Shown here piece after piece: positions 9,998-22,997 of a stretch of DNA of 24,358 bases (position 1 is its first letter; every line of letters starts with the position of its first letter). The notes below the pieces were generated by a model. It had not been told where the DNA came from. It saw nothing but the letters and a program-made list of their open reading frames with translations, and did not search any database. The position numbers and the translations under genes are program-made. Source of the stretch: Symploca sp. SIO1C2 (GTDB lineage Bacteria; Cyanobacteriota; Cyanobacteriia; Cyanobacteriales; Coleofasciculaceae); contig JAAHFP010000079.1 of NCBI GenBank assembly GCA_010672925.1, positions 1-24,358 of the forward strand. Reading direction: 5' to 3'.

Positions 9998-10426
9998 TTA
10001 TTCCGGCAACCAATCGCCGAGAATTTGCTCAGTAGAGTAGGGGCAAGTGGGTGGAAATTTTGCCTTATCCAACCTAGTTTGTCTTGCTGCCTCTCGACAT
10101 GCTCTTCGATATTCCTTGTCAAGAATTTCGTCTGGGTAGTGTTTTAGGCTGGGACTATCCTCAATTTTGCGACGAATTTGTGAACGACCATCATTAATTG
10201 AATCTAACCAGCTATCAGAACGACGTTGGGGTTGATATTCCCACTTCAACAAATGAAGCATAACACGTTCCATCTGGGAGCCAATGGCACTACGTTCACT
10301 TTTCCCCAAATCCTCTACCTCTTCAATTAGATGCTCCCAATCAACTTCTTCCCATCGTTTCTCTCGAAGGAGATGAGCAGTGTGTTTTGCCCATGCCGTT
10401 AAATCGGTGTTGTAGGTTACTAACAT
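9998..10426 (-). CDS. DUF29 family protein
   Basis: YNTDLTAWAKHTAHLLREKRWEEVDWEHLIEEVEDLGKSERSAIGSQMERVMLHLLKWEYQP matches the DUF29 signature (DWENLIEEIEDLG...HLLKW.YQP). Confidence 0.85.
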   Translation of the reverse strand: MLVTYNTDLTAWAKHTAHLLREKRWEEVDWEHLIEEVEDLGKSERSAIGSQMERVMLHLLKWEYQPQRRSDSWLDSINDGRSQIRRKIEDSPSLKHYPDEILDKEYRRACREAARQTRLDKAKFPPTCPYSTEQILGDWLPE

Positions 10427-10472
10427 GCTTCATATCATATCCGGTTGAATACTTACACGAAGAGTGAAAACA

Positions 10473-10510
10473 AGGCAGAGGGCAGAAGGCAGAAGGCAGA
10501 AGGCAGAAGG
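10473..10510. repeat. STRR heptamer array (GGCAGAA/GGCAGAG)n
   Basis: Read directly. The minus strand reads (TTCTGCC)n, about 47 nt upstream of the DUF29 ATG. Confidence 0.9.
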
Positions 10511-10552
10511 GAAAGAAGAAAGTTGCAAGGTAGAAGGAGACAGATCGTCTTT

Positions 10553-10652
10553 CTCCCCCAGCTTCCTCAGCTCCCCCAGCTTCCCCAGCTCCCCCAGCTT
10601 CCCCAGCTTCCCCAGCTTCCCCAGCTTCCTCAGCTTCCCACACTTCCCACCC
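10553..10652 (-). repeat. 8/9-mer array (CAGCTTCCC/CAGCTCCCC)n; the minus strand carries GGGG(G) runs spaced 4-5 nt apart
   Basis: C4-5 runs at 10555, 10573, 10583, 10591, 10601, 10610 and 10619. The overlapping ORFs (10341..10643, 10445..10699, 10464..10667) are repeat artefacts. Confidence 0.9.
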
Positions 10653-10663
10653 TTTTTTTTCGC

Positions 10664-12274
10664 TTAAGGCTCTTGCAGTATCCTTACCTGATTATCTAAG
10701 TCTAGTTGTACCTGATTATCCAAACCTAATTGTGGTGCGGCTTGAGCCACTTGTAGGGCTCTGATAAATTGAGCTAGGGAATATTCTAGATGGCTTCCCG
10801 CATCTACAGCTACCCAACCATCAGAGGTTAAATGTCGCCATTCAAAATGTAGGTGAGGACCGGTAGAACGTCCAGTGCTGCCGACACGCCCAATTACACT
10901 GCCTTGCTTTACTTGTTCACCAGGTCGAACAAAGATTTCAGAAAGGTGGGCATAGCGGCTTTCTTGAGTATTTTCTTCATGGCGCATAATTACCATTAGA
11001 CCATAGCCACCAGCAAAGTCAGCATATTTCACCTCACCGGAAGCAGCGGCAACTACAGGTGTCCCTTGAGGGGCTCCAATGTCAGTCCCAGAATGGAAGC
11101 GGGAGTCACCGGTAAAAGGATCAAGCCGCCAGCCAAAGACAGAACCAATAGCAGCGGGAATCGTTAGGGGAAACATAAACTTGGATTTGCCAATACTAGG
11201 ACGTCCTGCTGGGCGATTGGTAAGATTGTAGTAAGCTAGGCCAGATTGTGGTGCTTTTTGTCTGATAGCTATCCTGTTTGAGGGAGGCTTACTAGCAACA
11301 TTAGTATTAACTTTGGCTCGATTTAGAGGCAGACCACTGATACTGTTAGTATTAACCCTAACTCGATTCAAGGATGGACTACTGGTATTATTGGTCTTAA
11401 CTTTCACTGCTCCAGTTGCGACCGGTTGCACATTGTTGACCGGTTGAGCTCTAGCGACAGGTGGTATAGGAAGTTTTGCTCTGTTTACTATGGAACTTGG
11501 CGGTGATGGAGGAAGGGTTGGTTTGTTATTTGCAGTAGGTTGACTAGCTGCAGGAACACCACAGGAGCTACCGGAAAGTTGACCGCTTTGGGATACCGTT
11601 GAACAGCCAGTTGACCTTTCAGTAAGAATGACTGAAGTAGGCTTATTGTCGCGACTAGTTGAAGCAATATTGTTGTCAGTATTGTCAATATCGCTATTTT
11701 GAGGAGCAAGATGAATTTGAGCACTCCCTTGAGTGGGAGGATTAACCAGGGGTTGAGATGGCTGCGCTACCTCAGCACTTGGAGGTACTTGCAAGTTAGG
11801 GGCAGCTATAAGTGACTTTTTCGGTGCTGGTGCTGCTAAAGGTCCTGGTGCAGGAAGTGGGGCTGCTACCAGTTTTGGTGCAGGAGATGAGTCTGCTACT
11901 GGTTCTGGTGCAGGAGACGGGGCTGGTGCAGGAGATGAGGCTGCTACTGGTTTTGGTGCAGGAGATGAGTCTGCTACCGGTTCTGGGGTCGGAGATGGAA
12001 CTGCCGCCGGTGCAGGAGATGAGTCTGCTGCCGGGGCTGGAGAAGGAGACGGGGCTACTGCAGGAGGTGATGCTGCTGCCGTTGCTGCTACTGGGGCAGG
12101 AGTTCCTGCATCTACAAATGAATCAGTTTGAGCAACAACCATACTGCTGCTGAGGAAACCGAAACCACCAATCAAACTCAGTACCCGCATCAACAGAGGA
12201 AACTTGTAAAAAAGACTTGAGGGGGTGTAACTAGAAGAGGATTTTTCTACCATTTCCGACTCACTACTCATCAC
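10664..12274 (-). CDS. M23 (LytM-type) peptidase with Pro/Ala/Ser-rich N-terminal region
   Basis: HSGTDIGAPQGTPVVAAASGEV...GYGLMVIMRH...YAHLSEI...GSTGRSTGPHLHFEWRH are M23 metal-binding motifs. PAPS-rich repeats (SSPAPxPVA). Start ambiguous: GTG 12274, ATG 12271, or the Met of MRVLSLIGGFGFLSSSMVVAQ, which looks like the signal peptide. Confidence 0.93.
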   Translation of the reverse strand: MMSSESEMVEKSSSSYTPSSLFYKFPLLMRVLSLIGGFGFLSSSMVVAQTDSFVDAGTPAPVAATAAASPPAVAPSPSPAPAADSSPAPAAVPSPTPEPVADSSPAPKPVAASSPAPAPSPAPEPVADSSPAPKLVAAPLPAPGPLAAPAPKKSLIAAPNLQVPPSAEVAQPSQPLVNPPTQGSAQIHLAPQNSDIDNTDNNIASTSRDNKPTSVILTERSTGCSTVSQSGQLSGSSCGVPAASQPTANNKPTLPPSPPSSIVNRAKLPIPPVARAQPVNNVQPVATGAVKVKTNNTSSPSLNRVRVNTNSISGLPLNRAKVNTNVASKPPSNRIAIRQKAPQSGLAYYNLTNRPAGRPSIGKSKFMFPLTIPAAIGSVFGWRLDPFTGDSRFHSGTDIGAPQGTPVVAAASGEVKYADFAGGYGLMVIMRHEENTQESRYAHLSEIFVRPGEQVKQGSVIGRVGSTGRSTGPHLHFEWRHLTSDGWVAVDAGSHLEYSLAQFIRALQVAQAAPQLGLDNQVQLDLDNQVRILQEP

Positions 12275-12425
12275 TCACTATGCCTACTATCCTAGGCTCG
12301 AATCCCAAAGATTGTCCAAGAGGTGATAACAGGGGGAAAAAGGAGACCAGGTTTCGCAATTTCTATGTATAGCAATTCTACGACTTGTGAGGTACATCTT
12401 GATCCCCCTAAATCCCCCTTAAAAA

Positions 12426-12561
12426 GGGGGACTTTGAGAAAAGGGGGACTTTGAGAAAAGGGGGACTTTGAGAAAAGGGGGACTTTGAGAAAAGGGGGAC
12501 TTTGAGAAAAGGGGGACTTTGAGAAAAGGGGGACTTTGAGAAAAGGGGGACTTTGAGAAAA
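12426..12561. repeat. Perfect 17-bp tandem repeat x8 (GGGGGACTTTGAGAAAA)
   Basis: GGGGG starts at 12426, 12443, 12460, 12477, 12494, 12511, 12528 and 12545. Preceded by the hairpin tccccc-ttaaaaa-ggggga. ORF 12408..12626 is an artefact of it. Confidence 0.95.
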
Positions 12562-12624
12562 GAGTTTACCTTATGAGCCCATGAAAATTCATATGTCATG
12601 ACTTTTAATTTTTGGTATAACCTC

Positions 12625-12666
12625 AATTCTAAATTCTAAATTCTAAATTCTAAATTCTAAATTCTC
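12625..12666. repeat. STRR heptamer array (AATTCTA)n overlapping the birA stop codon
   Basis: Five perfect units plus one partial. The birA stop (cta at 12657-12659, TAG on the minus strand) and its last two codons lie inside the array. Confidence 0.9.
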
Positions 12667-13457
12667 CCGCTATATCCCAAACTAAATGTACCTGGTTTCA
12701 GACAAATTTCTGAGGAGTTGAAACTGACTTGTAGCTCACCTGTAGGGGTAACCCCTGTAATGATTCCCGGTTGGCCATCTACTATAACCTGACTTCCCAG
12801 GTGATGTAAAAGCTCTAGGTAAGAGGGCAGCAAACTTTCTATGCCAAATTCTAACCAATATTGGTATCCAGATAACAGTCCTTCGAGGACAATTGCTGCC
12901 AACATTTCTAGGGATGTTACTTGGGGATTTAACTGTTGTTGGCAAAAAGATTGTAAATTGATACCAGATTCAGGTACTGTATTGCTCCAGTTAATACCAA
13001 TACCGATAACAGCTTTGGTAACCAGATTTCTCTGAACACGGGTTTCCGTAAGAATGCCCCCTAATTTAAACTCTAACAGGAGCAAATCATTAGGCCATTT
13101 AAGCAAAACAGGGATACCGTAACTTCTCAAAGCTCTAGCAATTCCCCAAGCACTACACAAAGTTAGGTGAGCACTGTTGGATGCTTGAAGCTGGGGAGCT
13201 AAAGCTACAGATAAGTATAGTCCACCAAGACCCGATTGCCATTGCCGTCCCCGTTGTCCCCTTCCTGCGGTTTGTTGAGCGGCAATAACTGCTCTGGGTA
13301 TGGTTGCTCCCTGGTTGAGCAATTCCCACAGGGTTTGATTTGTAGAAGACAGAGTGTCAAATATATGTAGGGGTATAGTGGGAAATTTGCTCTGTAGAGA
13401 TAGTTGTTGCCTAACTTGTTGGAGAGCAGTTTTGAACTGGGTTTGATTAAAGCTCAC
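12657..13457 (-). CDS. birA: Biotin--[acetyl-CoA-carboxylase] ligase (no N-terminal HTH)
   Basis: QTAGRGQRGRQWQS (GRGRxGRxW biotin/ATP loop), LYLSV, KWPNDLLL. Length 266 aa. Confidence 0.92.
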   Translation of the reverse strand: MSFNQTQFKTALQQVRQQLSLQSKFPTIPLHIFDTLSSTNQTLWELLNQGATIPRAVIAAQQTAGRGQRGRQWQSGLGGLYLSVALAPQLQASNSAHLTLCSAWGIARALRSYGIPVLLKWPNDLLLLEFKLGGILTETRVQRNLVTKAVIGIGINWSNTVPESGINLQSFCQQQLNPQVTSLEMLAAIVLEGLLSGYQYWLEFGIESLLPSYLELLHHLGSQVIVDGQPGIITGVTPTGELQVSFNSSEICLKPGTFSLGYSGRI

Positions 13458-13534
13458 ATTTTTTCTGGTAATGAGTAATAAGCAGTAGTAGGACTTCAGT
13501 CCAAAAAGAAGCCAGAAACAATCGTCAGGTTATC

Positions 13535-13601
13535 GCTAGGGCGGGTTTTGTAGTTAAATTATCGCTATTACCGCTAATTATCTGGCTAAACCCGCCCCTA
13601 C
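13535..13601 (+). mobile_element. MITE-like ~65-bp hairpin element, copy C
   Basis: gctagggcgggttttg...ggctaaacccgcccctac. Same ends and orientation as copy B. Confidence 0.7.
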
Positions 13602-13654
13602 AAATTCATAAATTTTATTCTCAATTTCCAACTCTCCATTCTTCATTCTCAATT

Positions 13655-13906
13655 CTACATTCCTCTGTGGAACAGGCTTCTAGCCTGTGGTGTCTTCTCA
13701 AGCAGATTCAATATATTCACAAAGAGAGTTGGTTGAGGAATGGGAAGCCCTTCCTCTGCTAAACCATCCAAATGAAAAGCGATCGCTTCTTTGATCTGCT
13801 GTTGTATCTCTTCAATTGTCGCACCTGTTGCCACACATCCCGGCAAATCTGGAACATAGGCTGAATAATTACTCTCTAGCTTTTCAATCACAATCCCATA
13901 ACGCAT
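13655..13906 (-). CDS. hicB: HicB-family antitoxin (UPF0150-type) with repeat-derived C-terminal tail
   Basis: MRYGIVIEKLESNYSAYVPDLPGCVATGATIEEIQQQIKEAIAFHLDGLAEEGLPIPQP is a typical HicB core. AGGAGA lies upstream. The last 12 codons (TPQARSLFHRGM) are encoded by hairpin element H2. Confidence 0.75.
   Translation of the reverse strand: MRYGIVIEKLESNYSAYVPDLPGCVATGATIEEIQQQIKEAIAFHLDGLAEEGLPIPQPTLFVNILNLLEKTPQARSLFHRGM
13667..13688 (-). repeat. GTGGAAC-hairpin element copy H2
   Basis: gtggaacaggc-ttcta-gcctgt, 6-bp stem, inside the 3' end of hicB. Confidence 0.7.
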
Positions 13907-14317
13907 TACTATTCTTCTCCTACTTAGGATATTTTATTGGTTGCAATTTTCGTGCTTTTTGGCTATTATTTTAATAATGGAATAGGTGTGCGCATGTAAG
14001 GTACAAATTACTACTGCTGACTTCAAAAAACATTTTAGCAAATGTGAGTTGGGGTTACGAAGCATAACCCAACAGCGAGTTCTGGCTCTGGATATCAATT
14101 CTGGGAAATACACGGTTTGCGATCACTTTCAGCACTAGCTTCGCTCATCGCTAGACCGTTTTGATAATACCAATTACCGAAAGTTGCTAGATACTCAAAG
14201 CCTTGAAATCAAGACATACCGATGATTCATTTCAACTAAGTTTCCAGCTACTTTTTGTAAATGGTATAAGTTCGCAACACATCAAAAAAAAGCACTAAAT
14301 TCAATCATCAGTTTCCT

Positions 14318-14339
14318 GTGGAACAGGCATCTTGCCTGT
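14318..14339 (-). repeat. GTGGAAC-hairpin element copy H3
   Basis: gtggaacaggca-tct-tgcctgt, 7-bp stem, about 80-100 nt downstream of the caspase-STAND stop. Confidence 0.7.
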
Positions 14340-14392
14340 CTGACGTCTCCCCCTATCTGTTGCATCTGTCTCAACTACTATCTTTGAATGCA

Positions 14393-14418
14393 AATGGGTA
14401 TCTCAGCAATTACCCATT
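14393..14418 (-). terminator. Possible terminator hairpin abutting the caspase-STAND stop codon
   Basis: aatgggta (14393-14400) pairs with tacccatt (14411-14418): perfect 8-bp stem with a 10-nt loop. On the minus strand it is followed by TTGCATTC, so the U-tract is weak. Confidence 0.35.
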
Positions 14419-17400
14419 CATCGTCTGAAAACTTCCCACTGACCACAATCTATCCGTTGGTAGGGTTCTTTTTTTAGTTCCTCTTCAAAATCTGGGTCAA
14501 ATTTCGCTTCCTGCCAATAGCAGATAGATTTGACCTGCTTGGGAGTGAGGTTTTCGACTTTGCCCCAATTTGGGTCTTCACCGAAGTAGGCTCCGCTGAG
14601 GTCAGCTCTATTGATGTCAGCTCCTCTGAGGTCAGCTCCTCTGAGGTCAGCTCCTCTGAGGTCAGCATCAAAGAGGTTGGCATCAATAAGGCTAGCCTCC
14701 AAGAGGCCGACTCTACTGAGGTTGGCATCAAAGAGGATGGCTCTACTGAGGTTGGCTCTGCTGAGGTCGGTTCCACTGAGTTTGGCTCTCCTGAGGTTGG
14801 CTCTGCTGAGGTTGGCTCCACTGAGTTTGGCTCCACTGAGTTTGGCTCTCCTGAGGTCGGCTCCACTGAGGTTGGCATCAATGAGGTCGGCTCCACTGAG
14901 GTTGGCATCAATGAGGTCGGCTCCACTGAGGTCGGCTCCACTGAGGTTAGCTCCACTGAGGTTGGCTCTGCTGAGGTCGGCTCCACTGAGGTTGGCTCTG
15001 CTGAGGTCGGCTCCACTGAGGTTGGCTCTGCTGAGGTTGATCCTACTCAAGTTAGCTTGTTGAAGAGGAGCATTCCTTAAAGCAACTCCTAACTCTTTGA
15101 GCTTTCGCAGCGCTTCGTGCCTAGCCGCATTGTACTCTTCACCTTGAGTTTCCTGAACTGTTTCCCAGTGCTGCTTAATCGCTACTCTCCTATAAGACAA
15201 GTACCCAATCAGTGTTGTTCCAATTACAGGAATGATCAACCAACCAACAATTAATTTCAGTCGATTACGCTGCTTGTGCTCGATACTTTTTTCGATAAAC
15301 TCTGAGGCAAATTTCGATAAAGGAAATTCTTCACTCTCCTTTTTCTTAAACTCTCTAGCTTCCCTTAACCGCCTTCCTTGCAGCAAATAATCCTTAGCAA
15401 TTTTAGGATTTTCCTGCTGCTTATTCCTCCACTCAATAGCAGCAGCTTCAATCTTACGCTGCTCCCTGAGCTTATCCCGACTTTCCTCTAACCACTGCCT
15501 CAACAGACACCAGTTACGGATCAGTGCTTCATGAGCAACATCCACTACTACTTCCCCACTTGCCATCCCCTTTGCTGTTAGCTCACTAGTAACAATTAAC
15601 CGATTCTCCTTATCCGCTAATTCCGCAATTACCTCATCAATTAGAGCTTCAGGATATTTAGCTGTAATCAAATCTTGCTTTAATACCCGCCTACGAGTAT
15701 CCTCTGTCCCCTCTCCCAGCTGCGTCAAACCCAGAAATATATGCCTAGCTACCTCCTGCTTTAACTGAGAAAATTGTTGGAAAATCTCCGTGGCTCTTTT
15801 ATCTAACGTTCCCCCTACACCTCCTAACTGAGCATAACTAGCTAACTGTAAACCCTCATCAGTGCGCTGTTTCCAAAGTGCCTTGAGGGTATATTGCAAC
15901 AGTGGCAAACTTCCAGGAGAACCTGCGACATCTTGAAGCATCTGCTCCACTAATTCTGGCTCAATCTCCAAGTTAACTAGTTCAGCAGGTTTAGCGATCG
16001 CATCTTGCAACTGTTCCCTTTCCATCGGAGATATTGCGACTAAGTTCTCCTGGATCAGTTGAGCTAGTCCACTATAATTCTGCTCGATACATTTACTAAA
16101 GAAATCTGCTCGCATTGCCAGAATCAGACAAAGTTCCTCTTCCAACTGCCTTAATGCTCCCAGCAAAAAGTCAATAAACTGCGATCGCTCTCCATAATTC
16201 TGACAAAGGGTGAAAACTTCCTCAAATTGGTCGATTACCAGCACCACACGAGTAACTTGAGCAGATTGTACTAGACGGCGTAACCCATCTGCACCTTCTT
16301 TGAGTAATTCTTCTGCTTTCCCTAACTGTGTAGCGTGGTCAACTTGGGATAAATTTGGCTCCACAAAAACCTCTGCTAAACTCCTCAGAGGCTGACTTCC
16401 AGGAACCATAATCTCAATCTGCCACTGATTACTCCCAGCTAATTGCCTTCCTAACTTCAGTTGATGGAGTAATCCGGCCCTCAGGACTGAAGATTTACCA
16501 CTGCCAGAAGCTCCGATAATTGCCAAGAAGCTACTCTGACGCACTTTATCAATCAGCTGATCCGTTAGTTCCTTGCGTCCGAAAAAGTATTTGGGGTCTT
16601 CTTCATTACAGTCAAAATATTCTAATCCCTTGTAAGGACAAATGGCTTCAGTTGGTTCAGAAGTCGCCTGCTGTTGTTGAAATTTCCAGCTACGAGTTAA
16701 ATTAATCGGCTCACCAAAGTTAGTAAAAGTCGGACGTTGAGTTACCCCTTGCAGATGTTGGTTGAGATAATCCACCAAACTATAGTTAGTAACCCAGCGT
16801 TGAGGACATCTACTAGGGTCAAGTCCTTCTAGTAGCACCCTAGTCAAAACACTGTAGGCACTACCAATTTCTTCAAAAGACTCCTCAAATTCCCTAGAAG
16901 CAGCGATAAAACAACGGTCTCTTCCTTTACCTTGTTCTCCAGGGTCAGCTTCTTGCCCAAAATTGAGTAATTCTCCACTATGGCAGCAGTCAAGCCAGAC
17001 TATTTGCTGCTTAATCGGACTCTCTCTTAATAGTTCTCGCAACCATTTCAAGGATAAGCCATTAAATTCTACATCGGGATTAACATCACTAGTTGCCAAA
17101 AATCCTTCTGGAATACCCAAAGTTGTACGCAATCCATGGCCAGAAAAGTAGAATAAGGCAGTATCGGGGATACTGTTACCTTCGGGTAAAAATAGTTTAA
17201 CCAGTGCTTGCTTGAGTTGTGACAGCTTAACTTCCAGCTTCTTCCCTACAAAAGGCTGATGAGTTTCTCGATGAATTGCTTCCGGCAACCGCCAGACACG
17301 AAACTCTCCATCCTGTTCTAACCGTTGTGCAATCGCTTCTGCATCTTCAGCGGGAGCTTGTAGGTTACGTAAGTCTGAATATTGGTAAGTATTGATGCCA

Positions 17401-17423
17401 ACAACTAGCGCATCCCGGATCAT
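14418..17423 (-). CDS. Caspase-like (peptidase C14, orthocaspase) - nSTAND-type P-loop NTPase - single TM helix - pentapeptide-repeat protein
   Basis: Caspase His/Cys dyad motifs FYFSGHG (aa ~93-98) and VWLDCCHSG (aa ~142-150). CPYKGLEYFDCNEEDPKYFFGRKEL then P-loop IIGASGSGKSSVLRAGL and Walker B VVLVIDQFEEVFT. HEALIRNWCLLRQWLEE helix. TM LIVGWLIIPVIGTTLIGYLSY (nt 15192-15260). About 32 pentapeptide units A(N/D)LSx (aa ~786-946). C-terminal NLTPKQVKSICYWQEAKFD tail. Confidence 0.93.
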   Translation of the reverse strand: MIRDALVVGINTYQYSDLRNLQAPAEDAEAIAQRLEQDGEFRVWRLPEAIHRETHQPFVGKKLEVKLSQLKQALVKLFLPEGNSIPDTALFYFSGHGLRTTLGIPEGFLATSDVNPDVEFNGLSLKWLRELLRESPIKQQIVWLDCCHSGELLNFGQEADPGEQGKGRDRCFIAASREFEESFEEIGSAYSVLTRVLLEGLDPSRCPQRWVTNYSLVDYLNQHLQGVTQRPTFTNFGEPINLTRSWKFQQQQATSEPTEAICPYKGLEYFDCNEEDPKYFFGRKELTDQLIDKVRQSSFLAIIGASGSGKSSVLRAGLLHQLKLGRQLAGSNQWQIEIMVPGSQPLRSLAEVFVEPNLSQVDHATQLGKAEELLKEGADGLRRLVQSAQVTRVVLVIDQFEEVFTLCQNYGERSQFIDFLLGALRQLEEELCLILAMRADFFSKCIEQNYSGLAQLIQENLVAISPMEREQLQDAIAKPAELVNLEIEPELVEQMLQDVAGSPGSLPLLQYTLKALWKQRTDEGLQLASYAQLGGVGGTLDKRATEIFQQFSQLKQEVARHIFLGLTQLGEGTEDTRRRVLKQDLITAKYPEALIDEVIAELADKENRLIVTSELTAKGMASGEVVVDVAHEALIRNWCLLRQWLEESRDKLREQRKIEAAAIEWRNKQQENPKIAKDYLLQGRRLREAREFKKKESEEFPLSKFASEFIEKSIEHKQRNRLKLIVGWLIIPVIGTTLIGYLSYRRVAIKQHWETVQETQGEEYNAARHEALRKLKELGVALRNAPLQQANLSRINLSRANLSGADLSRANLSGADLSRANLSGANLSGADLSGADLIDANLSGADLIDANLSGADLRRAKLSGAKLSGANLSRANLRRAKLSGTDLSRANLSRAILFDANLSRVGLLEASLIDANLFDADLRGADLRGADLRGADINRADLSGAYFGEDPNWGKVENLTPKQVKSICYWQEAKFDPDFEEELKKEPYQRIDCGQWEVFRR
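14586..15068 (-). repeat. 15-bp periodic coding repeat (pentapeptide-repeat region)
   Basis: Units such as gaggtcggctccact and gaggttggctctgct are reiterated with few differences. They generate the spurious ORFs 14474..15016 and 14611..15063. Confidence 0.9.
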
Positions 17424-17449
17424 TTAGGTGTTAGGTGTTAGGTGGTAGG
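17424..17449 (+). repeat. STRR array (TTAGGTG/GGTGGTA) abutting the caspase-STAND start codon
   Basis: On the minus strand it reads CTCCCCTACCACCTAACACCTAACACCTAA followed directly by ATG (17423-17421). Confidence 0.9.
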
Positions 17450-17616
17450 GGAGGTTATATTTTCAGTGCATTATTTTATAGTATAGCTGAGGGGATTAAG
17501 ATATTCTTTGCTATTTTCCTTTCTCAAAATAAAATGATTGTACCCGTGATGTGGTGCGTTACGCTACGCTAACACACCCTACAATCTATCACTACGATAG
17601 TTACTAACTATTGTTT

Positions 17617-17825
17617 GAGCGGGTTTTGTATTAAGATTGTCGCCAAATGCGATAAGGGAGACCCTAAACTATTAGTGTCAACTTAAGGTGGATTCCAAAA
17701 ATTTAGTCCATTTCAATGGACTTAAGCTATTAGCCTTGGATTTGAATCCAAGGTGGGTTAGGGAATCCAGCTAGCAGCTATGTCTAGGTTTAAGTTGACA
17801 CCAATGACCCTAAACCCGCCCCGAC
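17617..17825 (+). mobile_element. MITE-like GGGCGGGTTT-ended element, copy D, interrupted by a second element
   Basis: gagcgggttttg...gataagggagaccctaaac [insert] gaccctaaacccgccccgac. Without the insert it is ~64 bp, like copies A-C. Confidence 0.7.
17671..17805. mobile_element. Nested 135-bp MITE with 16-bp terminal inverted repeats
   Basis: TIRs attagtgtcaacttaa (17671-17686) and ttaagttgacaccaat (17790-17805) match 15/16. Flanked by the direct repeat GACCCTAAAC (17660-17669 and 17806-17815). Internal perfect hairpins agtccat-ttca-atggact and ccttggatt-tg-aatccaagg. Confidence 0.75.
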
Positions 17826-17836
17826 AGCAATTAAAA

Positions 17837-17869
17837 CCTACCACCTACCACCTAACACCTACGACCTAA
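17837..17869 (-). repeat. STRR array (CCTACCA/CCTAACA)n abutting the Trypco1-like start codon
   Basis: CCTACCACCTACCACCTAACACCTACGACCTAA then A and ATG 17871. Inverted relative to 17424-17449. Confidence 0.9.
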
Positions 17870-17870
17870 A

Positions 17871-18260
17871 ATGATACAACTAACTCCTCTAGAACTTGAA
17901 GACGGAACAATCATTTATATAGAAGCCAAAGAAGATGTGGAAATTCCTTCTACCGAAGCTCCCCCATCTGAAGAAGAAGAAGAAGAACTAACTCGTGAGG
18001 ACTTAGATAAAGGTGGAAAAGGCTTGAGTAAAGCGCAGATGCTGCAAAATTTTAAACTAGTGGAAGGCACAATTCGAGCTTATACCCATTATACACTCAA
18101 CGCTTTCCGTCAAGTAGCCAACGCCAATATCAACAAAGTTACTCTAGAATTTGGCATGAAAGTAGGGGGTAAAGCCGGTATCCCTTACATTACCGAAGGC
18201 ACTGCCGAAAGCAACCTGAAAATTACTGTGGAATGTTCTTTTCCTAACGAAAAAAAATAG
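17871..18260 (+). CDS. Small Trypco1-like (CU044_2847-type) protein, tentative
   Basis: N-terminal LELEDGTIIYIEA, acidic low-complexity linker, C-terminal VTLEFGMKVGGKAGIPYITEGTAESNLKITVE. This fits my recollection of the trypsin-co-occurring domain 1 pattern (ELxDGxxVxVEV ... VxVEFGxKxxxEAGxxIAxxxxEAxxKVxLxW). Confidence 0.6.
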   Translation: MIQLTPLELEDGTIIYIEAKEDVEIPSTEAPPSEEEEEELTREDLDKGGKGLSKAQMLQNFKLVEGTIRAYTHYTLNAFRQVANANINKVTLEFGMKVGGKAGIPYITEGTAESNLKITVECSFPNEKK

Positions 18261-18368
18261 TGAACGCCATACCAAGAACCCCGACTTTTTGAAGGATACT
18301 GCGGTTGAATAAGGGGTGTTATCCCGCTTGTCAAGACTTTACGTGCAACGTTTTACAAGCTTTCTTAT

Positions 18369-18402
18369 CTTCTGCCTTCTGCCTCCTGCCTCCTGCCTTC
18401 TC
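18369..18402. repeat. STRR heptamer array (CTGCCTT/CTGCCTC)n
   Basis: Read directly, 66 nt upstream of ATG 18468. Confidence 0.9.
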
Positions 18403-18434
18403 ATACTAATGTACGATAATGGCAGCATCCGAAG

Positions 18435-19328
18435 TTGTCACTTTCCTCCTTAGGCAAAAGCGATCGCATGGTACCAAAAGAACTAAAGTTCCTGTTGAAG
18501 TTGTTAGGCTTTCCCAATTACAGGGCTCCCTTGACTAAAATTCAGCCTACTCCCAAAATGAAAGCTATGGAACGGAATAGTCTTTGTCGTCGGCTGTGCA
18601 ATCAAGGTTTTGTGGCTAGTGCGGTGGTGGTTACTAAGTTAAAGATTGCTCCTCCTGGTAAGTCTCTGCTCAAGTTAGATCCTACTGGTTCCCTGGTTAA
18701 GGAGGAAGAACTTCAAGTACTCCAAGCTTGCGCTAAGAGAACAATTTCTCCTCAAAAGACTGGTATTCCTAGTGACAAGCAACAAATAGTTATCCATGAT
18801 TTGAGCCAAAGGGGATTGATTAAAATAGTCGATCACAGAATTACCGACATTTGGTTGACAGACCAGGGGCAGCAATATTTATTGGAAAACTACGAATGTA
18901 ATAGTACCTCTGAACATATCCACCTGAAGATGCTCACGGATTACCTGCGGTTGCTGCGTAGATTCCAAGGGGTTGCCAGGGAGCAGGTACAGTCTGCAAC
19001 CATTGAGTCTCAGGAACCTGTAGGGACTGAGAAGTTGGCTGTATCTGAGAGCAAACCCACAGATGCAGCTATATTGCAGTTAATTCAAGATTTAGACAAT
19101 AAGTTAGGCACTAACAATTATTTGCCCATTTTTCATCTGCGGGAACAATTACAACCAAGGCTGTCTAGGGAAGAATTAGATCAAACTCTTTATCGCCTCC
19201 AACAACAAGAACAAATTGAGCTGAGTGCTTTGGTACATACTCAAAACTATACCCCAGAGCAAATTAACGCAGGTATTAGTCAGCGGGTTGGTAGTAAGCT
19301 ATTTTTTATCCAGGTTACGGTGGAGTGA
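18435..19328 (+). CDS. Hypothetical protein with three winged-helix-like modules
   Basis: The track start is TTG 18435. ATG 18468 (MVPKELKFLLKLLG) is more likely. Two tandem ~70-aa units share the pattern (K/E)EL..L......(R/K)...L...G(F/L)(V/I)........(I/L)...G...LL. A third unit is ILQLIQDLDNKLGTNNYLPIFHLREQLQPRLSREELDQTLYRLQQQEQIELS. No family recognised. Confidence 0.6.
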   Translation: MSLSSLGKSDRMVPKELKFLLKLLGFPNYRAPLTKIQPTPKMKAMERNSLCRRLCNQGFVASAVVVTKLKIAPPGKSLLKLDPTGSLVKEEELQVLQACAKRTISPQKTGIPSDKQQIVIHDLSQRGLIKIVDHRITDIWLTDQGQQYLLENYECNSTSEHIHLKMLTDYLRLLRRFQGVAREQVQSATIESQEPVGTEKLAVSESKPTDAAILQLIQDLDNKLGTNNYLPIFHLREQLQPRLSREELDQTLYRLQQQEQIELSALVHTQNYTPEQINAGISQRVGSKLFFIQVTVE

Positions 19329-19428
19329 AAACTAGTGCAGCATGGCCAAAATAAACTACCAGGGAAAAAAAGTTAACCAGCTTACTGTTTCCTTGCACTT
19401 TAACCCAGAAATCCAAGCATAAACTCTT

Positions 19429-19462
19429 GACTTATTACTTATTACTTGTTACTTATTACTTC
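19429..19462. repeat. STRR heptamer array (CTTATTA/TTATTAC)n
   Basis: Read directly. Same family as 1-22. Confidence 0.85.
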
Positions 19463-19640
19463 AAAACCCGAGTCAATGGACTTATACAGCAAGCCCTAAG
19501 TAGGGTTGGCTGAATAAGTGTGGAAGCTTTGCCAGACAAAAGGTTCAGTCCAATTGACAGCCAAACTAGTCCAAAGTTTTTTATTTTTTGGCTCAATTTT
19601 CTTGCACCTTAATGGGAAATTCCTGGGTAACTTTCTTCTT

Positions 19641-19685
19641 CTCCCTTGTCTCCCTTGTCTCCCTTGTCTTCCTTGTCCCCCTTGT
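19641..19685. repeat. 9-mer tandem array (CTCCCTTGT)n
   Basis: Five units, three of them perfect, about 50 nt upstream of ATG 19734. It creates the spurious ORF 19518..19712. Confidence 0.9.
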
Positions 19686-19733
19686 CTGACTTATTCAGCA
19701 AGCCCTAAGTAGCGCCACTGAGGTATCCGCAAT

Positions 19734-21815: not shown

Positions 21816-21922
21816 GTGGTAGGTTTTAGGTGGTAGGTGGTAGGTGGTAGGTGGTAGGTTTTAGGTGGTAGGTGGTAGGTTTTAGGTGATAGGTGTTAGG
21901 TGTTAGGTGGTAGGTGGTAGGT
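21801..21922 (+). repeat. STRR array (GGTGGTA/GGTTTTA/GGTGTTA)n
   Basis: About 17 units. It contains the ATPase stop TAG 21813-21815 and ends at HIP1 GCGATCGC 21923-21930. Confidence 0.95.
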
Positions 21923-21930
21923 GCGATCGC

Positions 21931-22064: not shown

Positions 22065-22074
22065 AGAGTGTTTC

Positions 22075-22917: not shown

Positions 22918-22997
22918 TTGGTTCTCCTTGGAAAATCAGTGATCGATGGTGGCTTTTGGTGTGGCCTATTTGGGTTGCAAAATATAGTGCTACGCGC

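What the first reader, a model, noticed from the sequence alone, without database searches (positions are those of the whole stretch)
14418..17423. Membrane-spanning NLR-like protein: caspase effector and nSTAND NTPase on one side, pentapeptide repeats on the other
One 1001-aa ORF combines four parts. First, a C14 caspase-like domain with an intact His/Cys dyad (SGHG, DCCHSG). Second, an NTPase with the CPYxGLxxFxxxDxxxFFGR / GxSGSGKSS / VIDQFEE signature I associate with the nSTAND1 clade. Third, a single strongly hydrophobic 21-residue helix (LIVGWLIIPVIGTTLIGYLSY, aa ~724-744). Fourth, about 160 aa of pentapeptide repeats plus a conserved tail. Caspase-STAND fusions with soluble repeat sensors are known in cyanobacteria. 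A predicted TM segment between the NTPase and the repeat array would instead place the putative sensor in the periplasm or thylakoid lumen and the protease in the cytoplasm, giving a receptor-like transmembrane NLR. Pentapeptide-repeat proteins are known lumen residents in plants and cyanobacteria, so the topology is plausible. Charges flank the helix on both sides, so orientation cannot be read from sequence alone.
Basis: partly seen in the sequence, partly recalled or inferred. Interest (0 to 1): 0.7.

Follow-up and report, generated by a model that had tools for sequence, protein, structure and literature searches.

The report
Membrane-anchored caspase–STAND switch with pore-toxin partner
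A filamentous cyanobacterium encodes a probable cell-suicide immune module: a protease plus ATP-driven switch, tied by one membrane helix to a fast-evolving repeat domain that most likely lies outside the cytoplasm, next to a small pore-toxin precursor. The design has been noted before but never tested.

Summary
ORF 14418-17423 (minus strand, 1001 aa) encodes a C14 caspase-like domain, an nSTAND1 NTPase (409 bits), one hydrophobic helix (aa 724-744), about 34 pentapeptide repeats and a two-Cys tail.

The helix is a family trait. It is present in 120 of 121 close homologues and in 93 of 119 nSTAND1 cluster representatives, ahead of pentapeptide, WD40, FGE or unknown 4-Cys domains. Three family-level signals favour N-in/C-out:
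- K/R counts are 4.5-5.2 on the N-side flank against 2.3-2.6 on the C-side flank.
- Cysteine counts are even only C-terminal of the helix.
- The columns are 97% apolar but poorly conserved in sequence.

First, a divergently transcribed Trypco1/"Pepco" gene (17871-18260) is paired with this gene in most close relatives. Pepco was recently shown to be a protease-activated pore toxin. Second, in syntenic Symploca strains the helix plus outer domain is a hypervariable cassette inside otherwise 92-98% identical DNA.

Topology is well supported in silico, but the sensing role is untested. Transmembrane caspase/STAND proteins were already noted in 2020 and 2025. Verdict: new member of a known, uncharacterised kind. 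Interest 0.4.

The parts
14418..17423 (-). Whole gene: caspase-nSTAND1-TM-pentapeptide protein, 1001 aa plus stop codon
   Evidence: ORF. Pfam domains. 3229 homologues at E<=1e-10 among the 8000 candidates scored; 118 of the 120 listed carry caspase, nSTAND1 and pentapeptide families together, and named sources are filamentous cyanobacteria.
16722..17411 (-). Peptidase C14 (orthocaspase/metacaspase-like) domain, aa 5-234; His96 in SGHG, Cys146/Cys147 in DCCHSG
   Evidence: Pfam PF00656, 49.2 bits. Dyad residues invariant or >90% conserved in 77 homologues. Foldseek matches to the MALT1 paracaspase.
15411..16637 (-). nSTAND1 NTPase, aa 263-671; CPYKGL...FFGR, Walker A GASGSGKSS (304-312), Walker B VIDQFEE (396-402)
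   Evidence: Pfam PF20703, 409.5 bits, E 2.8e-122. Motif residues invariant. Foldseek matches to ORC/Cdc6 and the plant NLR NRC3.
15255..15410 (-). Basic helical stalk, aa 672-723, leading into the membrane helix
   Evidence: AF2 helices 673-679, 683-696 and 704-758. The N-side flank is K/R-rich across the family.
15192..15254 (-). Predicted single transmembrane helix, aa 724-744 (LIVGWLIIPVIGTTLIGYLSY); Pro732 90% and Gly740 74% conserved
   Evidence: Kyte-Doolittle mean 2.09 and Hessa sum +0.65. Conserved position in 117 of 121 sequences, plus 3 just below threshold. Columns 97% apolar, entropy 2.15 bits. Lies inside one continuous AF2 helix, 704-758, with pLDDT falling to 58-67.
15072..15191 (-). 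Juxtamembrane linker, aa 745-784. It has no Cys in this protein; many relatives carry a CX5C pair here.
   Evidence: This is the least conserved stretch against syntenic L025 (43-53% nt identity across window 15100-15299, which also covers the TM helix).
14559..15071 (-). Pentapeptide-repeat beta-helix, aa 785-955 (~34 repeats); predicted extracytoplasmic
   Evidence: Pfam Pentapeptide, 195.7 bits. AF2 shows a regular strand every 5 residues at pLDDT 84-94. Top Foldseek and PDB sequence hits are pentapeptide-repeat proteins, including lumenal ones. 15-nt tandem array of 30 copies.
14421..14558 (-). C-terminal helical cap, aa 956-1001, with the motif NLTPKQVKSxCxWQxAKFDPDF...DC and the candidate disulfide pair Cys968/Cys993
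   Evidence: Tail alignment and paired Cys. Even-number Cys rule. AF2 helices 961-965, 977-985 and 994-1000. The lumenal proteins Rfr32 and At2g44920 have a disulfide-stabilised two-helix C-terminal cap (PMC8145042).
17424..17870 (.). Divergent promoter/leader region, 447 nt. A 27-nt inverted heptamer-repeat arm abuts each start codon.
   Evidence: 100% identical in Symploca sp. SIO1B1 (L026); shorter (79-246 nt) in the ten relatives measured, and about 225 nt in syntenic L025 from gene coordinates.
17871..18260 (+). Trypco1 ('Pepco') gene, 129 aa: predicted protease-activated pore-forming effector precursor
   Evidence: Pfam PF19493, 78.3 bits against a cut-off of 24.6. NCBIfam CU044_2847 family. 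Divergently adjacent to the caspase-nSTAND1 gene in L001-L009, L020, L021 and L024-L026. Function of the family from PMC12642450.

Best explanation
This is a two-gene, membrane-associated conflict (abortive-infection or programmed-death) module of a filamentous cyanobacterium. The source strain is nearly identical to Symploca sp. SIO1B1 over this locus.

Gene 1 encodes a single-pass membrane protein. Its Arg/Lys-type orthocaspase and nSTAND1 ATPase switch face the cytoplasm. A pentapeptide-repeat beta-helix with a Cys-paired helical cap is displayed in the periplasm or thylakoid lumen (N-in/C-out). Gene 2, transcribed divergently, encodes Trypco1/Pepco, a latent pore-forming toxin.

Proposed sequence of events:
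1. At rest the protein is a membrane-tethered monomer with an inactive protease.
2. A ligand or perturbation acting on the rapidly diversifying outer domain, or on the membrane itself, drives clustering. Nucleotide-dependent oligomerisation of the nSTAND1 modules follows on the inner face of the membrane.
3. Proximity activates the caspase-like protease.
4. The protease cleaves Trypco1 at a basic or C-terminal site.
5. Trypco1 then permeabilises the membrane and kills or arrests the cell, protecting the filament.

What is shown here: domain composition and intact catalytic motifs; family-wide conservation of the hydrophobic span; charge and cysteine asymmetry across it; conserved gene pairing; and localised hypervariability of the TM-plus-outer-domain cassette.

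What is inferred: membrane insertion and orientation in vivo; the sensing role of the repeats; cleavage of Trypco1; pore formation; and the biological trigger.
For: Domains and motifs.

Membrane helix:
- Kyte-Doolittle and Hessa outlier.
- At the same position in 117 of 121 close sequences, with 3 more just below threshold.
- Present in 93 of 119 (78%) nSTAND1 50%-cluster representatives that have at least 150 aa after the NTPase. It precedes pentapeptide, WD40, FGE-sulfatase or an unannotated 4-Cys domain.
- Core length 19-22 aa in 111 of 117.
- Columns 97% apolar but twice as variable as the enzymatic domains. That is the behaviour of a lipid-facing span, not a buried core helix.
- The Pfam nSTAND1 model ends at aa 671.
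- AF2 (mean pLDDT 84.5) places it in one uninterrupted 55-residue helix, 704-758, linking two well-folded parts, with a local confidence dip.

Orientation:
- K/R counts are 4.5 against 2.6, with N>C in 108 of 117, and 5.2 against 2.3, with N>C in 84 of 93.
- The number of Cys C-terminal of the helix is even in 114 of 117 and 82 of 93. The N-terminal part shows no parity: 48/69 and 47/46 even/odd.
- Cys appear and disappear as pairs. One pair is CX5C after the helix; the other is in the cap.
- Lumenal pentapeptide proteins have a disulfide-stabilised C-terminal cap.
- An ATPase and a leaderless 720-aa N-terminal part must be cytoplasmic (established knowledge).

Partner gene:
- Trypco1 Pfam hit.
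- Divergent adjacency in 14 related loci, within otherwise unrelated neighbourhoods for the non-syntenic ones.
[quoted passage not shown] Its partner proteases were noted to be fused to sensors 'including transmembrane STAND ATPases' (PMC12642450).
- The DxCHSG/SGHG signature is the metacaspase/orthocaspase type, expected to cut after Arg or Lys (established knowledge). Trypco1 has invariant K50-G51 in an otherwise hypervariable acidic loop, and invariant K117 followed by near-invariant I118 before a variable tail.

Variable-sensor signature:
- In syntenic loci L025 and L026, flanks are 92-98% identical and Trypco1 protein is 100% identical.
- Identity falls to 43-53% over the TM helix plus linker (versus L025) and to 64-81% (L025) or 75-87% (L026) over the repeats.
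- dN in the repeats is 0.23-0.28, against 0.01-0.02 in neighbouring genes. dN/dS is 0.49-0.76, against 0.1-0.2. dS is also raised 3-8 fold from the NTPase onward, which indicates recombination.
Against: - There is no experimental datum for this protein or any nSTAND1 protein.
- No dedicated topology predictor could be run. The window protein's own charge bias is weak (5 versus 3 K/R).
- On the single sequence, a hydrophobic window this strong arises in 11% of residue shuffles.
- 50 of 117 homologues have no Cys in the outer part, so the disulfide argument applies only to a subset. Four-Cys versions could in principle bind metal in the cytoplasm.
- A TM helix between the NTPase and the repeats rules out the usual STAND autoinhibition, in which the sensor folds back on the NTPase. 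The signalling mechanism would therefore have to be different and is unknown.
- The window Trypco1 tail after the conserved VECSFP is only 4 aa. In the characterised Streptomyces Pepco about 20 aa are removed, by a trypsin-like protease that cuts after Ile. Whether that protein belongs to Trypco1 or Trypco2 could not be checked.
- The AF2 monomer of Trypco1 has low confidence (pLDDT 53.5).
- Some close relatives (L010, L022) and all distant relatives (L012-L019) lack an adjacent Trypco1.
- PADLOC has no model for the system.
- dN/dS values in the repeat region rest on uncertain alignments.
Confidence: 0.55

Rival explanations
1. The helix is only a membrane anchor and the repeats are not the sensor. 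The helix tethers the protease-ATPase to the membrane where the Trypco1 pore acts. The signal is sensed in the cytoplasm by the NTPase and helical domains, or through membrane damage. The outer pentapeptide rod is structural (spacer, envelope attachment, decoy).
For: - The helix is retained whatever domain follows it: pentapeptide, WD40, FGE or unknown. The constant feature is membrane attachment rather than any one ligand-binding fold.
- Some representatives end soon after the helix, for example P0173 and P0240 with 2-22 aa after it, although these may be truncated.
- Pentapeptide proteins have no established ligand-sensing role in the periplasm or lumen (PMC8145042).
- The sensor cannot contact the NTPase across a bilayer.
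Against: - The outer cassette is the fastest-evolving part of the locus among syntenic strains, with raised dN/dS. A passive spacer would not be expected to behave this way.
- Its position corresponds to the sensor position of other STAND proteins.
- The alternative domains in the same slot (WD40, FGE/C-type-lectin fold) are the ones proposed or shown as antigen sensors elsewhere (PMC10907252).
Confidence: 0.2
2. The hydrophobic helix does not span a membrane. It is buried in the oligomer or acts as a monotopic, in-plane anchor. The whole protein would then be cytoplasmic, with the pentapeptide beta-helix as a conventional soluble STAND sensor, for example a DNA mimic that binds phage DNA-binding proteins.
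For: - Pentapeptide proteins such as MfpA, Qnr and AlbG are cytoplasmic DNA mimics, and they are among the structural hits.
- The single-sequence hydrophobicity test is weak.
- Pro732 and Gly740 are conserved within the segment, which could allow a kink.
- 22% of representatives have no such helix, and soluble nSTAND1-FGE proteins exist (PMC10907252).
Against: - The family shows positive-inside asymmetry, and Cys pairing is restricted to the C-terminal side.
- The uniformly apolar 19-22-residue core has sharp charged boundaries and high sequence entropy.
- At 21 residues it is too short for a re-entrant hairpin.
- AF2 does not pack it into a domain and gives it locally low confidence.
- Published predictions for sister proteins call it transmembrane.
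Confidence: 0.1
3. The same machine is used for something other than anti-phage defence. Possibilities are developmentally or stress-triggered programmed cell death ('extrinsic' death signalling), or self/non-self recognition between filaments, with the outer repeats reading a host-derived or neighbour-derived cue.
For: - These systems are enriched in multicellular bacteria (PMC7159879).
- Reviewers of cyanobacterial orthocaspases proposed extracellular death-signal reception for the TM-containing forms (PMC7475262).
- The locus sits among housekeeping genes (BirA, M23 peptidase, RecJ), not in an obvious defence island.
- Allelic hypervariability also fits allorecognition.
Against: - The only experimental data for a Trypco/Pepco-protease-STAND module are for phage-protein-triggered toxicity.
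- No evidence for any trigger was obtainable here.
Confidence: 0.15

Closest known systems
Pepco (Trypco1/Trypco2)-protease-STAND modules, e.g. Streptomyces subrutilus SsPepco-SsAvs4 (Evans et al., bioRxiv 2025.11.14.688446; Trypco first named by Kaur et al. 2020, PMC7159879)
   Same: A small Trypco-family gene lies next to a gene encoding a protease fused to a STAND ATPase and a variable C-terminal domain. The preprint lists 'transmembrane STAND ATPases' among the sensors fused to Pepco-associated proteases, and names cyanobacteria as a main host group.
   Different: - The protease here is a C14 caspase-like enzyme, not trypsin-like. Kaur et al. defined Trypco by co-occurrence with trypsin.
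- The ATPase is nSTAND1, not Avs4.
- The genes are divergent rather than tandem.
- A TM helix separates the ATPase from the variable domain.
- The Trypco1 tail beyond the conserved core is only 4 aa here, and 0-17 aa in relatives. In SsPepco about 20 aa are removed after Ile97.
- It is unknown whether SsPepco belongs to Trypco1 or Trypco2.
Cyanobacterial orthocaspases with p20-AAA_16/NACHT-TM-WD40 architecture (Ava_0039, Ava_3079, GEI7407_1667; Bhattacharjee and Mishra 2020, PMC7475262; survey in PMC8283722)
   Same: An N-terminal active caspase-like domain and an NTPase predicted to be cytoplasmic, then one TM helix, then a C-terminal repeat domain predicted to be extracellular. The proposed role is reception of an external death signal.
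   Different: The outer domain there is a WD40 propeller; here it is a pentapeptide beta-helix. Those papers did not recognise nSTAND1 or the Trypco1 partner and gave no topology statistics. My survey shows the WD40 and pentapeptide forms belong to one nSTAND1 subfamily that shares the helix.
EACC1-caspase two-gene membrane-associated system (Kaur et al. 2020, PMC7159879; EACC1 shown to be a pore former in the 2025 preprint)
   Same: An N-terminal caspase with a highly variable C-terminal region that can include STAND NTPases and repeats. At least a third of those proteins have TM helices, some followed by extracellular periplasmic-binding domains. The partner is a small membrane-active protein released by proteolysis.
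   Different: There is no EACC1 gene here. The caspase scores 99.3 bits, below the 140-bit cut-off of the NCBIfam 'caspase, EACC1-associated type' model. The partner is Trypco1 instead.
Canonical NLR/STAND immune sensors (animal and plant NLRs, bacterial Avs and bNACHT)
   Same: Tripartite logic of effector, nucleotide-driven oligomerisation switch and C-terminal repeat domain, with protease or death output. Foldseek similarity to NRC3 and ORC/Cdc6-type ATPases.
   Different: Those sensors are soluble, and the repeat domain contacts the NTPase directly. Here a bilayer would lie between them. NACHT scores below threshold (23.6 versus 26.7 bits), and there is no Avs hit in PADLOC.
Lumenal pentapeptide-repeat proteins Rfr32 (Cyanothece) and At2g44920/TL15 (Arabidopsis) (PMC8145042)
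   Same: [quoted passage not shown] Both appear among the PDB hits.
   Different: They are small soluble proteins exported through cleavable signal peptides, with no attached enzyme. Homology of the cap itself could not be shown.

Membership tests
nSTAND1 clade of STAND NTPases (Pfam PF20703; Kaur et al. 2021) | Match to the family profile above the curated threshold over its full length | tested here: met
   409.5 bits against a cut-off of 27.1; profile positions 1-377 of 379; aa 263-671.
nSTAND1 clade of STAND NTPases (Pfam PF20703; Kaur et al. 2021) | Intact P-loop (Walker A GxxxxGK[ST]) and Walker B acidic residues | tested here: met
   GASGSGKSS at 304-312 and VIDQFEE at 396-402. G304-S312, D398, Q399, F400 and E402 are invariant in 77 homologues.
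nSTAND1 clade of STAND NTPases (Pfam PF20703; Kaur et al. 2021) | Nucleotide-dependent oligomerisation switch | not testable with these tools
   Needs biochemistry or cryo-EM.
Peptidase C14 / orthocaspase (metacaspase-like) | Caspase-fold profile match with a His-Cys catalytic dyad in SGHG and DxCHSG contexts | tested here: met
   PF00656, 49.2 bits against 21.4. G95 and G97 are invariant, H96 is >90% conserved, C146 is invariant and C147 is >90% conserved. Foldseek match to the MALT1 paracaspase.
Peptidase C14 / orthocaspase (metacaspase-like) | Proteolytic activity with Arg/Lys P1 specificity | not testable with these tools
   Expected from the metacaspase-type motif (established knowledge) but not measured.
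EACC1-associated caspase system | Caspase of the EACC1-associated subtype, with an adjacent EACC1 gene | tested here: not met
   NCBIfam NF047832 scores 99.3 bits, below the 140 cut-off. No EACC1-like neighbour; the neighbours are Trypco1, an unknown 297-aa ORF and HicB.
Pentapeptide-repeat protein | At least 8 contiguous A(D/N)LxX pentapeptides forming a quadrilateral beta-helix | tested here: met
   About 34 repeats. PF00805 scores 195.7 bits. AF2 shows one strand per 5 residues at pLDDT 84-94. Top Foldseek hits are pentapeptide-repeat structures.
Trypco1/Pepco-protease effector module | Small Trypco-family protein encoded next to a protease gene, with the pairing conserved | tested here: met
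   PF19493, 78.3 bits against 24.6. Adjacent and divergent in L001-L009, L020, L021 and L024-L026. Absent in L010, L022 and distant relatives.
Trypco1/Pepco-protease effector module | Unstructured, charged, Pro-rich C-terminal tail removed by the protease after a conserved residue | tested here: inconclusive
   The conserved core ends at ...NLK117-I118-TVECSFP125. The tail is variable, 0-17 aa, rich in E, K, Q, S and P, but only 4 aa here (NEKK). An alternative candidate site is the invariant K50-G51 in the disordered acidic loop.
Trypco1/Pepco-protease effector module | Pre-assembled 9-10-mer beta-barrel that becomes a membrane pore after cleavage | not testable with these tools
   No multimer prediction was available. 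The monomer model has low confidence (pLDDT 53.5) and shows one long helix plus three C-terminal strands.
Single-pass N-in/C-out membrane receptor | One uncharged segment of about 20 residues, conserved in position and apolar character | tested here: met
Single-pass N-in/C-out membrane receptor | Positive-inside charge asymmetry | tested here: met
   Family level: 4.5 versus 2.6 K/R (N>C in 108 of 117) and 5.2 versus 2.3 (84 of 93). For the window protein alone the bias is weak, 5 versus 3.
Single-pass N-in/C-out membrane receptor | Marks of an oxidising compartment on the outer domain (paired cysteines) | tested here: met
   Even Cys counts C-terminal of the helix in 114 of 117 and 82 of 93. 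No parity on the N-terminal side. The window protein has Cys968 and Cys993.
Single-pass N-in/C-out membrane receptor | Demonstrated membrane insertion, orientation and ligand-dependent signalling | not testable with these tools
   Needs reporter fusions, fractionation and functional assays. No TMHMM, DeepTMHMM or Phobius was available.
NACHT/NB-ARC NLR | NACHT or NB-ARC profile match above threshold | tested here: not met
   NACHT scores 23.6 bits, below the 26.7 cut-off. There is no NB-ARC hit. The protein is a STAND, not an NLR in the strict sense.

The most novel reading that the evidence does not exclude
nSTAND1 proteins of this type are true transmembrane immune receptors. The extracytoplasmic, recombining repeat cassette binds a phage or envelope-derived ligand before, or independently of, genome entry. 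A single TM helix transmits this by ligand-induced clustering to an NLR-type ATPase, which assembles on the inner membrane face and fires a caspase that unleashes a pore toxin. That would make them a cell-surface-receptor/NLR hybrid, and this would be the dominant architecture of one of the largest STAND clades in multicellular bacteria.
Probability: 0.3. Interest if true: 0.75.

Novelty: new member of a known kind. Interest (0 to 1): 0.4.

Why it matters
STAND/NLR immune switches are normally thought of as soluble cytoplasmic sensors whose repeat domain folds back on the ATPase. This locus belongs to a very large subfamily that has never been tested experimentally. The nSTAND1 domain matches 45,176 clusters at 50% identity, and 78% of the nearest 119 informative representatives carry the helix. 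In these proteins a membrane would lie between the switch and the variable domain, so activation would have to work as in single-pass surface receptors.

The window offers a compact test case. It has a complete two-gene unit with a defined candidate substrate (Trypco1/Pepco). It also has natural allelic series in near-identical Symploca strains, in which only the TM-plus-outer-domain cassette differs. If the topology and sensing role hold, bacteria would have a way to couple extracytoplasmic recognition to caspase-triggered pore formation.

The idea itself is already in the literature, in passing, so the value lies in the supporting statistics and the test system rather than in a new kind of element.

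Tried and rejected
- Significance on the single sequence. Residue shuffles reach the observed Kyte-Doolittle maximum in 11% of trials, so I did not rely on it. The uncharged-run test gives 1.1%. The argument rests on conservation.
- Homology of the C-terminal cap to the disulfide cap of lumenal PRPs. A PDB sequence search with the tail was swamped by repeat matches and aligned nothing beyond the repeats. I keep this as an analogy only.
- EACC1 system membership. Rejected: below cut-off and no EACC1 gene.
- Known defence systems. PADLOC gave only a generic 'caspase' hit and weak mad3/mad8 P-loop hits, and nothing for Trypco1.
- The downstream 297-aa and 693-aa (AAA_16/KAP-like) genes as part of the system. 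They are conserved only in the two syntenic strains L025 and L026. They are absent next to the other relatives, so I excluded them.
- Trypco1 next to more distant relatives (Beggiatoa-like, Leptolyngbya, Trichodesmium loci L010-L019). None was found by tblastn, and the upstream genes are unrelated. The pairing is specific to one clade.
- The inverted repeat that abuts both start codons as a regulatory element of the module. It is built from a heptamer repeat dispersed at five intergenic sites of the window and is absent from most relatives. It is a lineage-specific repeat, not a family feature.
- Rfam scan of the whole window: no hit.
- AF2 of the Trypco1 monomer: low confidence, usable only for secondary structure.
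- Burial of the helix in the AF2 model could not be checked, because coordinates and contacts are not exposed. Only secondary structure and pLDDT were used.

Full report
**1. The observation**

The ORF listing gives one 1001-aa ORF at 14418-17423 on the minus strand. Pfam finds three domains:
- Peptidase_C14 at aa 5-234 (49.2 bits, cut-off 21.4).
- nSTAND1 at aa 263-671 (409.5 bits, E 2.8e-122, nearly the whole 379-position model).
- Several pentapeptide families over about aa 785-955 (195.7 bits).

The quoted motifs sit at SGHG 94-97, DCCHSG 145-150, CPYKGL 262, GASGSGKSS 304-312 and VIDQFEE 396-402. They are invariant or more than 90% conserved in a 77-sequence alignment. NACHT, nSTAND3 and nSTAND6 score below their thresholds. 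The NCBIfam model for EACC1-associated caspases also scores below its cut-off (99.3 versus 140 bits).

The segment LIVGWLIIPVIGTTLIGYLSY (aa 724-744) is the only 19-residue window above Kyte-Doolittle 1.6 (value 2.09). Its summed Hessa free energy is +0.65 kcal/mol, against +8.8 for the runner-up.

The repeats are encoded by a 15-nt tandem array of 30 copies at 14589-15039. That array also explains the two spurious overlapping ORFs listed there.

**2. Is the helix more than chance?**

On the single sequence the case is only moderate. 11% of residue shuffles reach the same hydrophobic maximum. 1.1% contain a 21-residue run free of K, R, D, E, Q, N and H.

The comparative data settle it. A search of 5.8 billion proteins returned 3229 hits at E<=1e-10 among the 8000 candidates scored. 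118 of the 120 listed carry caspase, nSTAND1 and pentapeptide families together. The sources that give names are filamentous cyanobacteria such as Symploca, Nostoc, Calothrix, Brasilonema, Coleofasciculus and Leptolyngbya.
- A hydrophobic window of at least 1.6 lies at the same place in 117 of 121 sequences (120 homologues plus the query). Three more score 1.49-1.58 there. The one real exception (P0022) has a different C-terminal architecture.
- The uncharged core is 19-22 residues long in 111 of 117.
- In the 77-sequence alignment the 21 columns are 97% apolar or small and 3% polar. Their entropy is 2.15 bits, against 1.07-1.08 for the caspase and NTPase domains.
- Only Pro732 (90%) and Gly740 (74%) stand out as conserved. 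The boundaries are sharp: K723 is 92% polar and R745 is 96% polar.

This pattern, conserved in composition but free in position, is what a lipid-facing span shows. A buried core helix of a conserved domain would not behave this way. The Pfam nSTAND1 model already ends at aa 671.

AlphaFold2 on this alignment (mean pLDDT 84.5) puts the segment inside one uninterrupted helix, 704-758, that joins two confidently folded parts. Confidence drops locally to 58-67. I could not inspect contacts in the model.

**3. Orientation**

The family is not ambiguous.
- In the close homologues, the 15-residue N-side flank has on average 4.5 K/R and 0.7 D/E. The C-side flank has 2.6 and 2.0. N exceeds C in 108 of 117, and the reverse holds in 2.
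- A second signal is independent of the first. The number of cysteines C-terminal of the helix is 0, 2, 4 or 6 in 114 of 117 sequences. The N-terminal part shows no parity: 48 even and 69 odd.
- The cysteines come and go as pairs. One is a CX5C pair about 15 residues after the helix. The other is in the C-terminal cap. The window protein has only the cap pair, Cys968 and Cys993.

Paired cysteines restricted to one side of a membrane span are the expected mark of disulfides in an oxidising compartment. Solved lumenal pentapeptide proteins (Rfr32, At2g44920) have a C-terminal two-helix cap held by a disulfide (PMC8145042). AF2 predicts helices at 961-965, 977-985 and 994-1000 here. I could not show sequence homology of the caps. 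A leaderless 720-residue N-terminal part containing an ATPase must be cytoplasmic (established knowledge). Taken together, the evidence favours N-in/C-out.

**4. How general is it?**

I searched the nSTAND1 domain (aa 263-723) against 1.84 billion 50%-identity representatives. There were 45,176 hits at E<=1e-3 and 17,252 at E<=1e-30.

Of the best 149, 119 have at least 150 residues after the NTPase. Of those, 93 (78%) have a hydrophobic span at the equivalent position. What follows it by simple pattern matching is pentapeptide repeats in 17, WD40-like repeats in 33, and other sequence in 43. Pfam on ten examples showed WD40 propellers, one FGE-sulfatase domain, and a recurrent unannotated domain of about 230-270 aa with four conserved Cys.

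The same asymmetries hold in this more independent sample:
- K/R 5.2 against 2.3, with N>C in 84 of 93.
- C-terminal Cys even in 82 of 93.
- N-terminal Cys even/odd 47/46.

Several helix-less representatives have a cytoplasmic-type FGE domain directly after the NTPase. This matches the nSTAND1-FGE proteins described as cytoplasmic in PMC10907252. The helix is therefore a trait of a large nSTAND1 subfamily that carries interchangeable outer domains. It is not a peculiarity of this gene.

**5.

A 129-aa ORF (17871-18260, plus strand) is transcribed divergently, 447 nt upstream. It is a Trypco1 protein (PF19493, 78.3 bits against 24.6; NCBIfam CU044_2847 family).

tblastn finds it divergently adjacent to the caspase-nSTAND1 gene in 9 of the 19 related genome loci. 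These are the closer relatives, with at least 51% identity. Look-ups add Calothrix PCC 7507, Brasilonema, a metagenomic contig and two syntenic loci. Outside the syntenic strains the surrounding genes are unrelated, so the pair travels as a unit. It is absent in L010, L022 and the distant relatives.

Kaur et al. 2020 named Trypco1/2 for their co-occurrence with trypsin-like peptidases. Evans et al. 2025 (bioRxiv 2025.11.14.688446) renamed them Pepco. For a Streptomyces Pepco-Avs4 pair they reported the following:
- Pepco forms SDS-resistant 9-10-mer beta-barrels.
- The barrels become toxic membrane pores when the partner protease removes a C-terminal tail of about 20 residues after a conserved Ile.

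In 50 cyanobacterial Trypco1 sequences the conserved core ends at ...NLK117-I118-TVECSFP125. A variable charged and Pro-rich tail of 0-17 residues follows, only 4 residues here (NEKK). An invariant K50-G51 sits in an otherwise hypervariable acidic loop. The DxCHSG/SGHG protease is of the metacaspase/orthocaspase type, which cuts after Arg or Lys (established knowledge). K117 and K50 are therefore candidate sites, but this is inference.

The AF2 monomer of Trypco1 has low confidence (pLDDT 53.5). It shows a strand at 14-18, disorder at 19-51, a helix at 54-82 and strands at 89-98, 105-109 and 116-123. This is compatible with an obligate oligomer but proves nothing.

**6. A hypervariable cassette**

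Two loci are syntenic with window 10002-24358: L025 (a JGI metagenome contig) and L026 (Symploca sp. SIO1B1). They share the order DUF29, M23 peptidase, BirA, HicB, caspase-STAND gene, Trypco1, a 286-aa ORF, a 693-aa AAA protein and an HD protein. Nucleotide identity is 92-98%, and the Trypco1 protein is 100% identical. Yet the caspase-STAND proteins are 1001, 1133 and 1064 aa long.

In 100-nt windows, identity to L025 runs as follows:

| Window coordinates | Region | Identity to L025 |
|---|---|---|
| 16400-17499 | 5' part of the gene | 91-99% |
| 15300-16399 | NTPase | 80-95% |
| 15100-15299 | TM helix and linker | 43-53% |
| 14500-15099 | repeats | 64-80% |
| 13800-13999 | beyond the gene | 94-97% |

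At the protein level, the Symploca relatives compare as follows:

| Region | Identity |
|---|---|
| Caspase and NTPase | 83-97% (excluding the N-terminally truncated partial P0008) |
| TM helix | 23-52% |
| Linker | 27-77% |
| Repeats | 49-67% |

Nei-Gojobori estimates are:

| Region | dS | dN | dN/dS |
|---|---|---|---|
| Neighbouring genes | 0.07-0.12 | 0.01-0.02 | 0.1-0.2 |
| Caspase domain | 0.11-0.14 | 0.014-0.035 | 0.14-0.25 |
| NTPase | 0.32-0.39 | 0.045-0.059 | 0.11-0.18 |
| TM plus linker | 0.33 or saturated | 0.20-0.80 | 0.6 (L026 only) |
| Repeats | 0.31-0.58 | 0.23-0.28 | 0.49-0.76 |

Synonymous divergence several-fold above background implies recombination with diverged alleles or paralogues, not just relaxed constraint. 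The higher dN/dS in the outer part fits diversifying pressure. Alignment of the repeats is uncertain, so those ratios are rough. A constant effector and switch joined to a rapidly exchanged TM-plus-outer-domain cassette is the pattern expected of a recognition module. This is the best evidence here that the repeats are more than an anchor.

**7. Mechanism**

The best-supported reading is a membrane-tethered, N-in/C-out protease-ATPase. Its outer cassette, or the membrane state, controls clustering and nSTAND1 oligomerisation. Proximity activates the caspase-like protease, which processes Trypco1 into an active pore. The cell dies or arrests and the filament is protected.
- Shown: composition, motif integrity, conservation of the span, its asymmetries, gene pairing and cassette variability.
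- Inferred: membrane insertion in vivo, which membrane (plasma or thylakoid), the trigger, Trypco1 cleavage and its site, pore formation, and the defence role.

One mechanistic point deserves note. The usual STAND autoinhibition, in which the sensor folds back on the NTPase, is impossible across a bilayer. Signalling would have to resemble that of single-pass receptors.

Three rivals remain:
- The helix is only an anchor and sensing is cytoplasmic (0.2).
- The helix does not span the membrane and the whole protein is cytoplasmic (0.1).
- The same machine serves developmental death or allorecognition rather than phage defence (0.15).

**8. Comparison with what is known, and novelty**

The nSTAND1 clade was defined by Kaur et al. 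2021. TM helices in caspase-led conflict proteins, some with extracellular domains, were noted by Kaur et al. 2020 for the EACC1 system. Surveys of cyanobacterial orthocaspases counted TM helices and pentapeptide repeats among accessory features (PMC8283722). One review explicitly proposed cytoplasmic p20 plus AAA_16/NACHT, a TM helix and an extracellular WD40 domain receiving death signals (PMC7475262). Evans et al. 2025 mention transmembrane STAND ATPases fused to Pepco-linked proteases. A full-text search for 'transmembrane STAND' found no other relevant paper.

The architecture and the idea are therefore already published, though only in passing and without tests. This locus is a new member of that kind. 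What is added here:
- The family-level topology evidence.
- The estimate that the helix is the majority state near this part of nSTAND1.
- The caspase-Trypco1 pairing in cyanobacteria.
- The allelic cassette variation.

Interest is moderate (0.4). A specialist would not be surprised by the architecture. Transmembrane STAND signalling is nonetheless an open, testable question, and this locus is a convenient entry point.

**9. Source and context**

The window is nearly identical to Symploca sp. SIO1B1 over the shared locus. The rest of the window encodes a soluble NB-ARC+TPR STAND protein, RecJ, an LTXXQ protein, DUF2225, DUF3754, DUF3531, DUF29, an M23 peptidase, BirA and an HD protein. This is not an obvious defence island.

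Noticed in passing
window 5768-5834, 7872-7917, 17425-17449, 17837-17868, 21813-21921: A heptamer tandem repeat (CCTA[A/C]CA)n occurs at five intergenic sites: 31 pattern matches against 0 expected. Two copies form a 27-nt inverted repeat that directly abuts the start codons of both divergent genes, Trypco1 and the caspase-STAND gene, so the two mRNAs would share the same leader sequence. Among relatives it was seen only in the Caldora locus L009. It looks like a lineage-specific STRR-type repeat.
   Followed up: partly
window 17424-17870 (internal inverted repeats 17671-17686 / 17790-17805 and 17702-17725): The intergenic region between the two genes is 447 nt. It is 79-246 nt in the ten relatives measured and about 225 nt in the syntenic L025, but 100% identical in Symploca sp. 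SIO1B1 (L026). The extra DNA contains nested inverted repeats, so it may be a small inserted element or a structured RNA. Rfam gave no hit.
   Followed up: partly
L009:8001-9791 (Caldora sp. MAG contig_70): This locus has the highest local identity to the query among the genome-collection loci: 90% over the first 443 residues. It encodes an in-frame 596-aa protein lacking residues ~444-790, that is, the C-terminal half of the NTPase and the TM helix. The caspase and half-NTPase are joined directly to the post-helix linker, short repeats and the Cys-paired tail. Trypco1 is retained next door. This is either a natural deletion derivative or an assembly artefact.
   Followed up: partly
P0136, P0156, P0163, P0188, P0207, P0232, P0255 (C-terminal ~230-270 aa after the TM helix): A recurrent domain with no Pfam match follows the TM helix in many nSTAND1 relatives. 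Its motif is roughly FENQYTDGALRxTY...GADLNNDG...PCxxLxxIExLW...CGWYG...C, with four conserved Cys in most examples (one of the seven has only two). It appears to be an undescribed extracytoplasmic domain family.
   Followed up: partly
window 18435-19328 (+) and 19734-21815 (+): A 297-aa ORF with no family match is followed by a 693-aa AAA_16/AAA_22/KAP-like P-loop protein, immediately downstream of Trypco1. Both are conserved in the two syntenic Symploca-like loci but not next to other relatives of the caspase-STAND gene. They may form a separate two-gene NTPase system.
   Followed up: partly
window 632-3073 (+): A second STAND protein lies in the same window: an NB-ARC NTPase followed by a long TPR_12/TPR_10 array (813 aa). 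It is soluble, with no TM segment noted.
   Followed up: no
window 13655-13906 (-): A HicB-like antitoxin gene (83 aa) lies ~510 nt downstream of the caspase-STAND gene. No recognisable HicA toxin ORF was found in the 13906-14418 gap. It is conserved in the syntenic loci.
   Followed up: partly
window 14474-15016 (-) and 14611-15063 (+): Two long ORFs (180 and 150 aa) overlap the pentapeptide-repeat region in other frames or on the other strand. They translate to monotonous repeats and are by-products of the 15-nt tandem array, not genes.
   Followed up: yes
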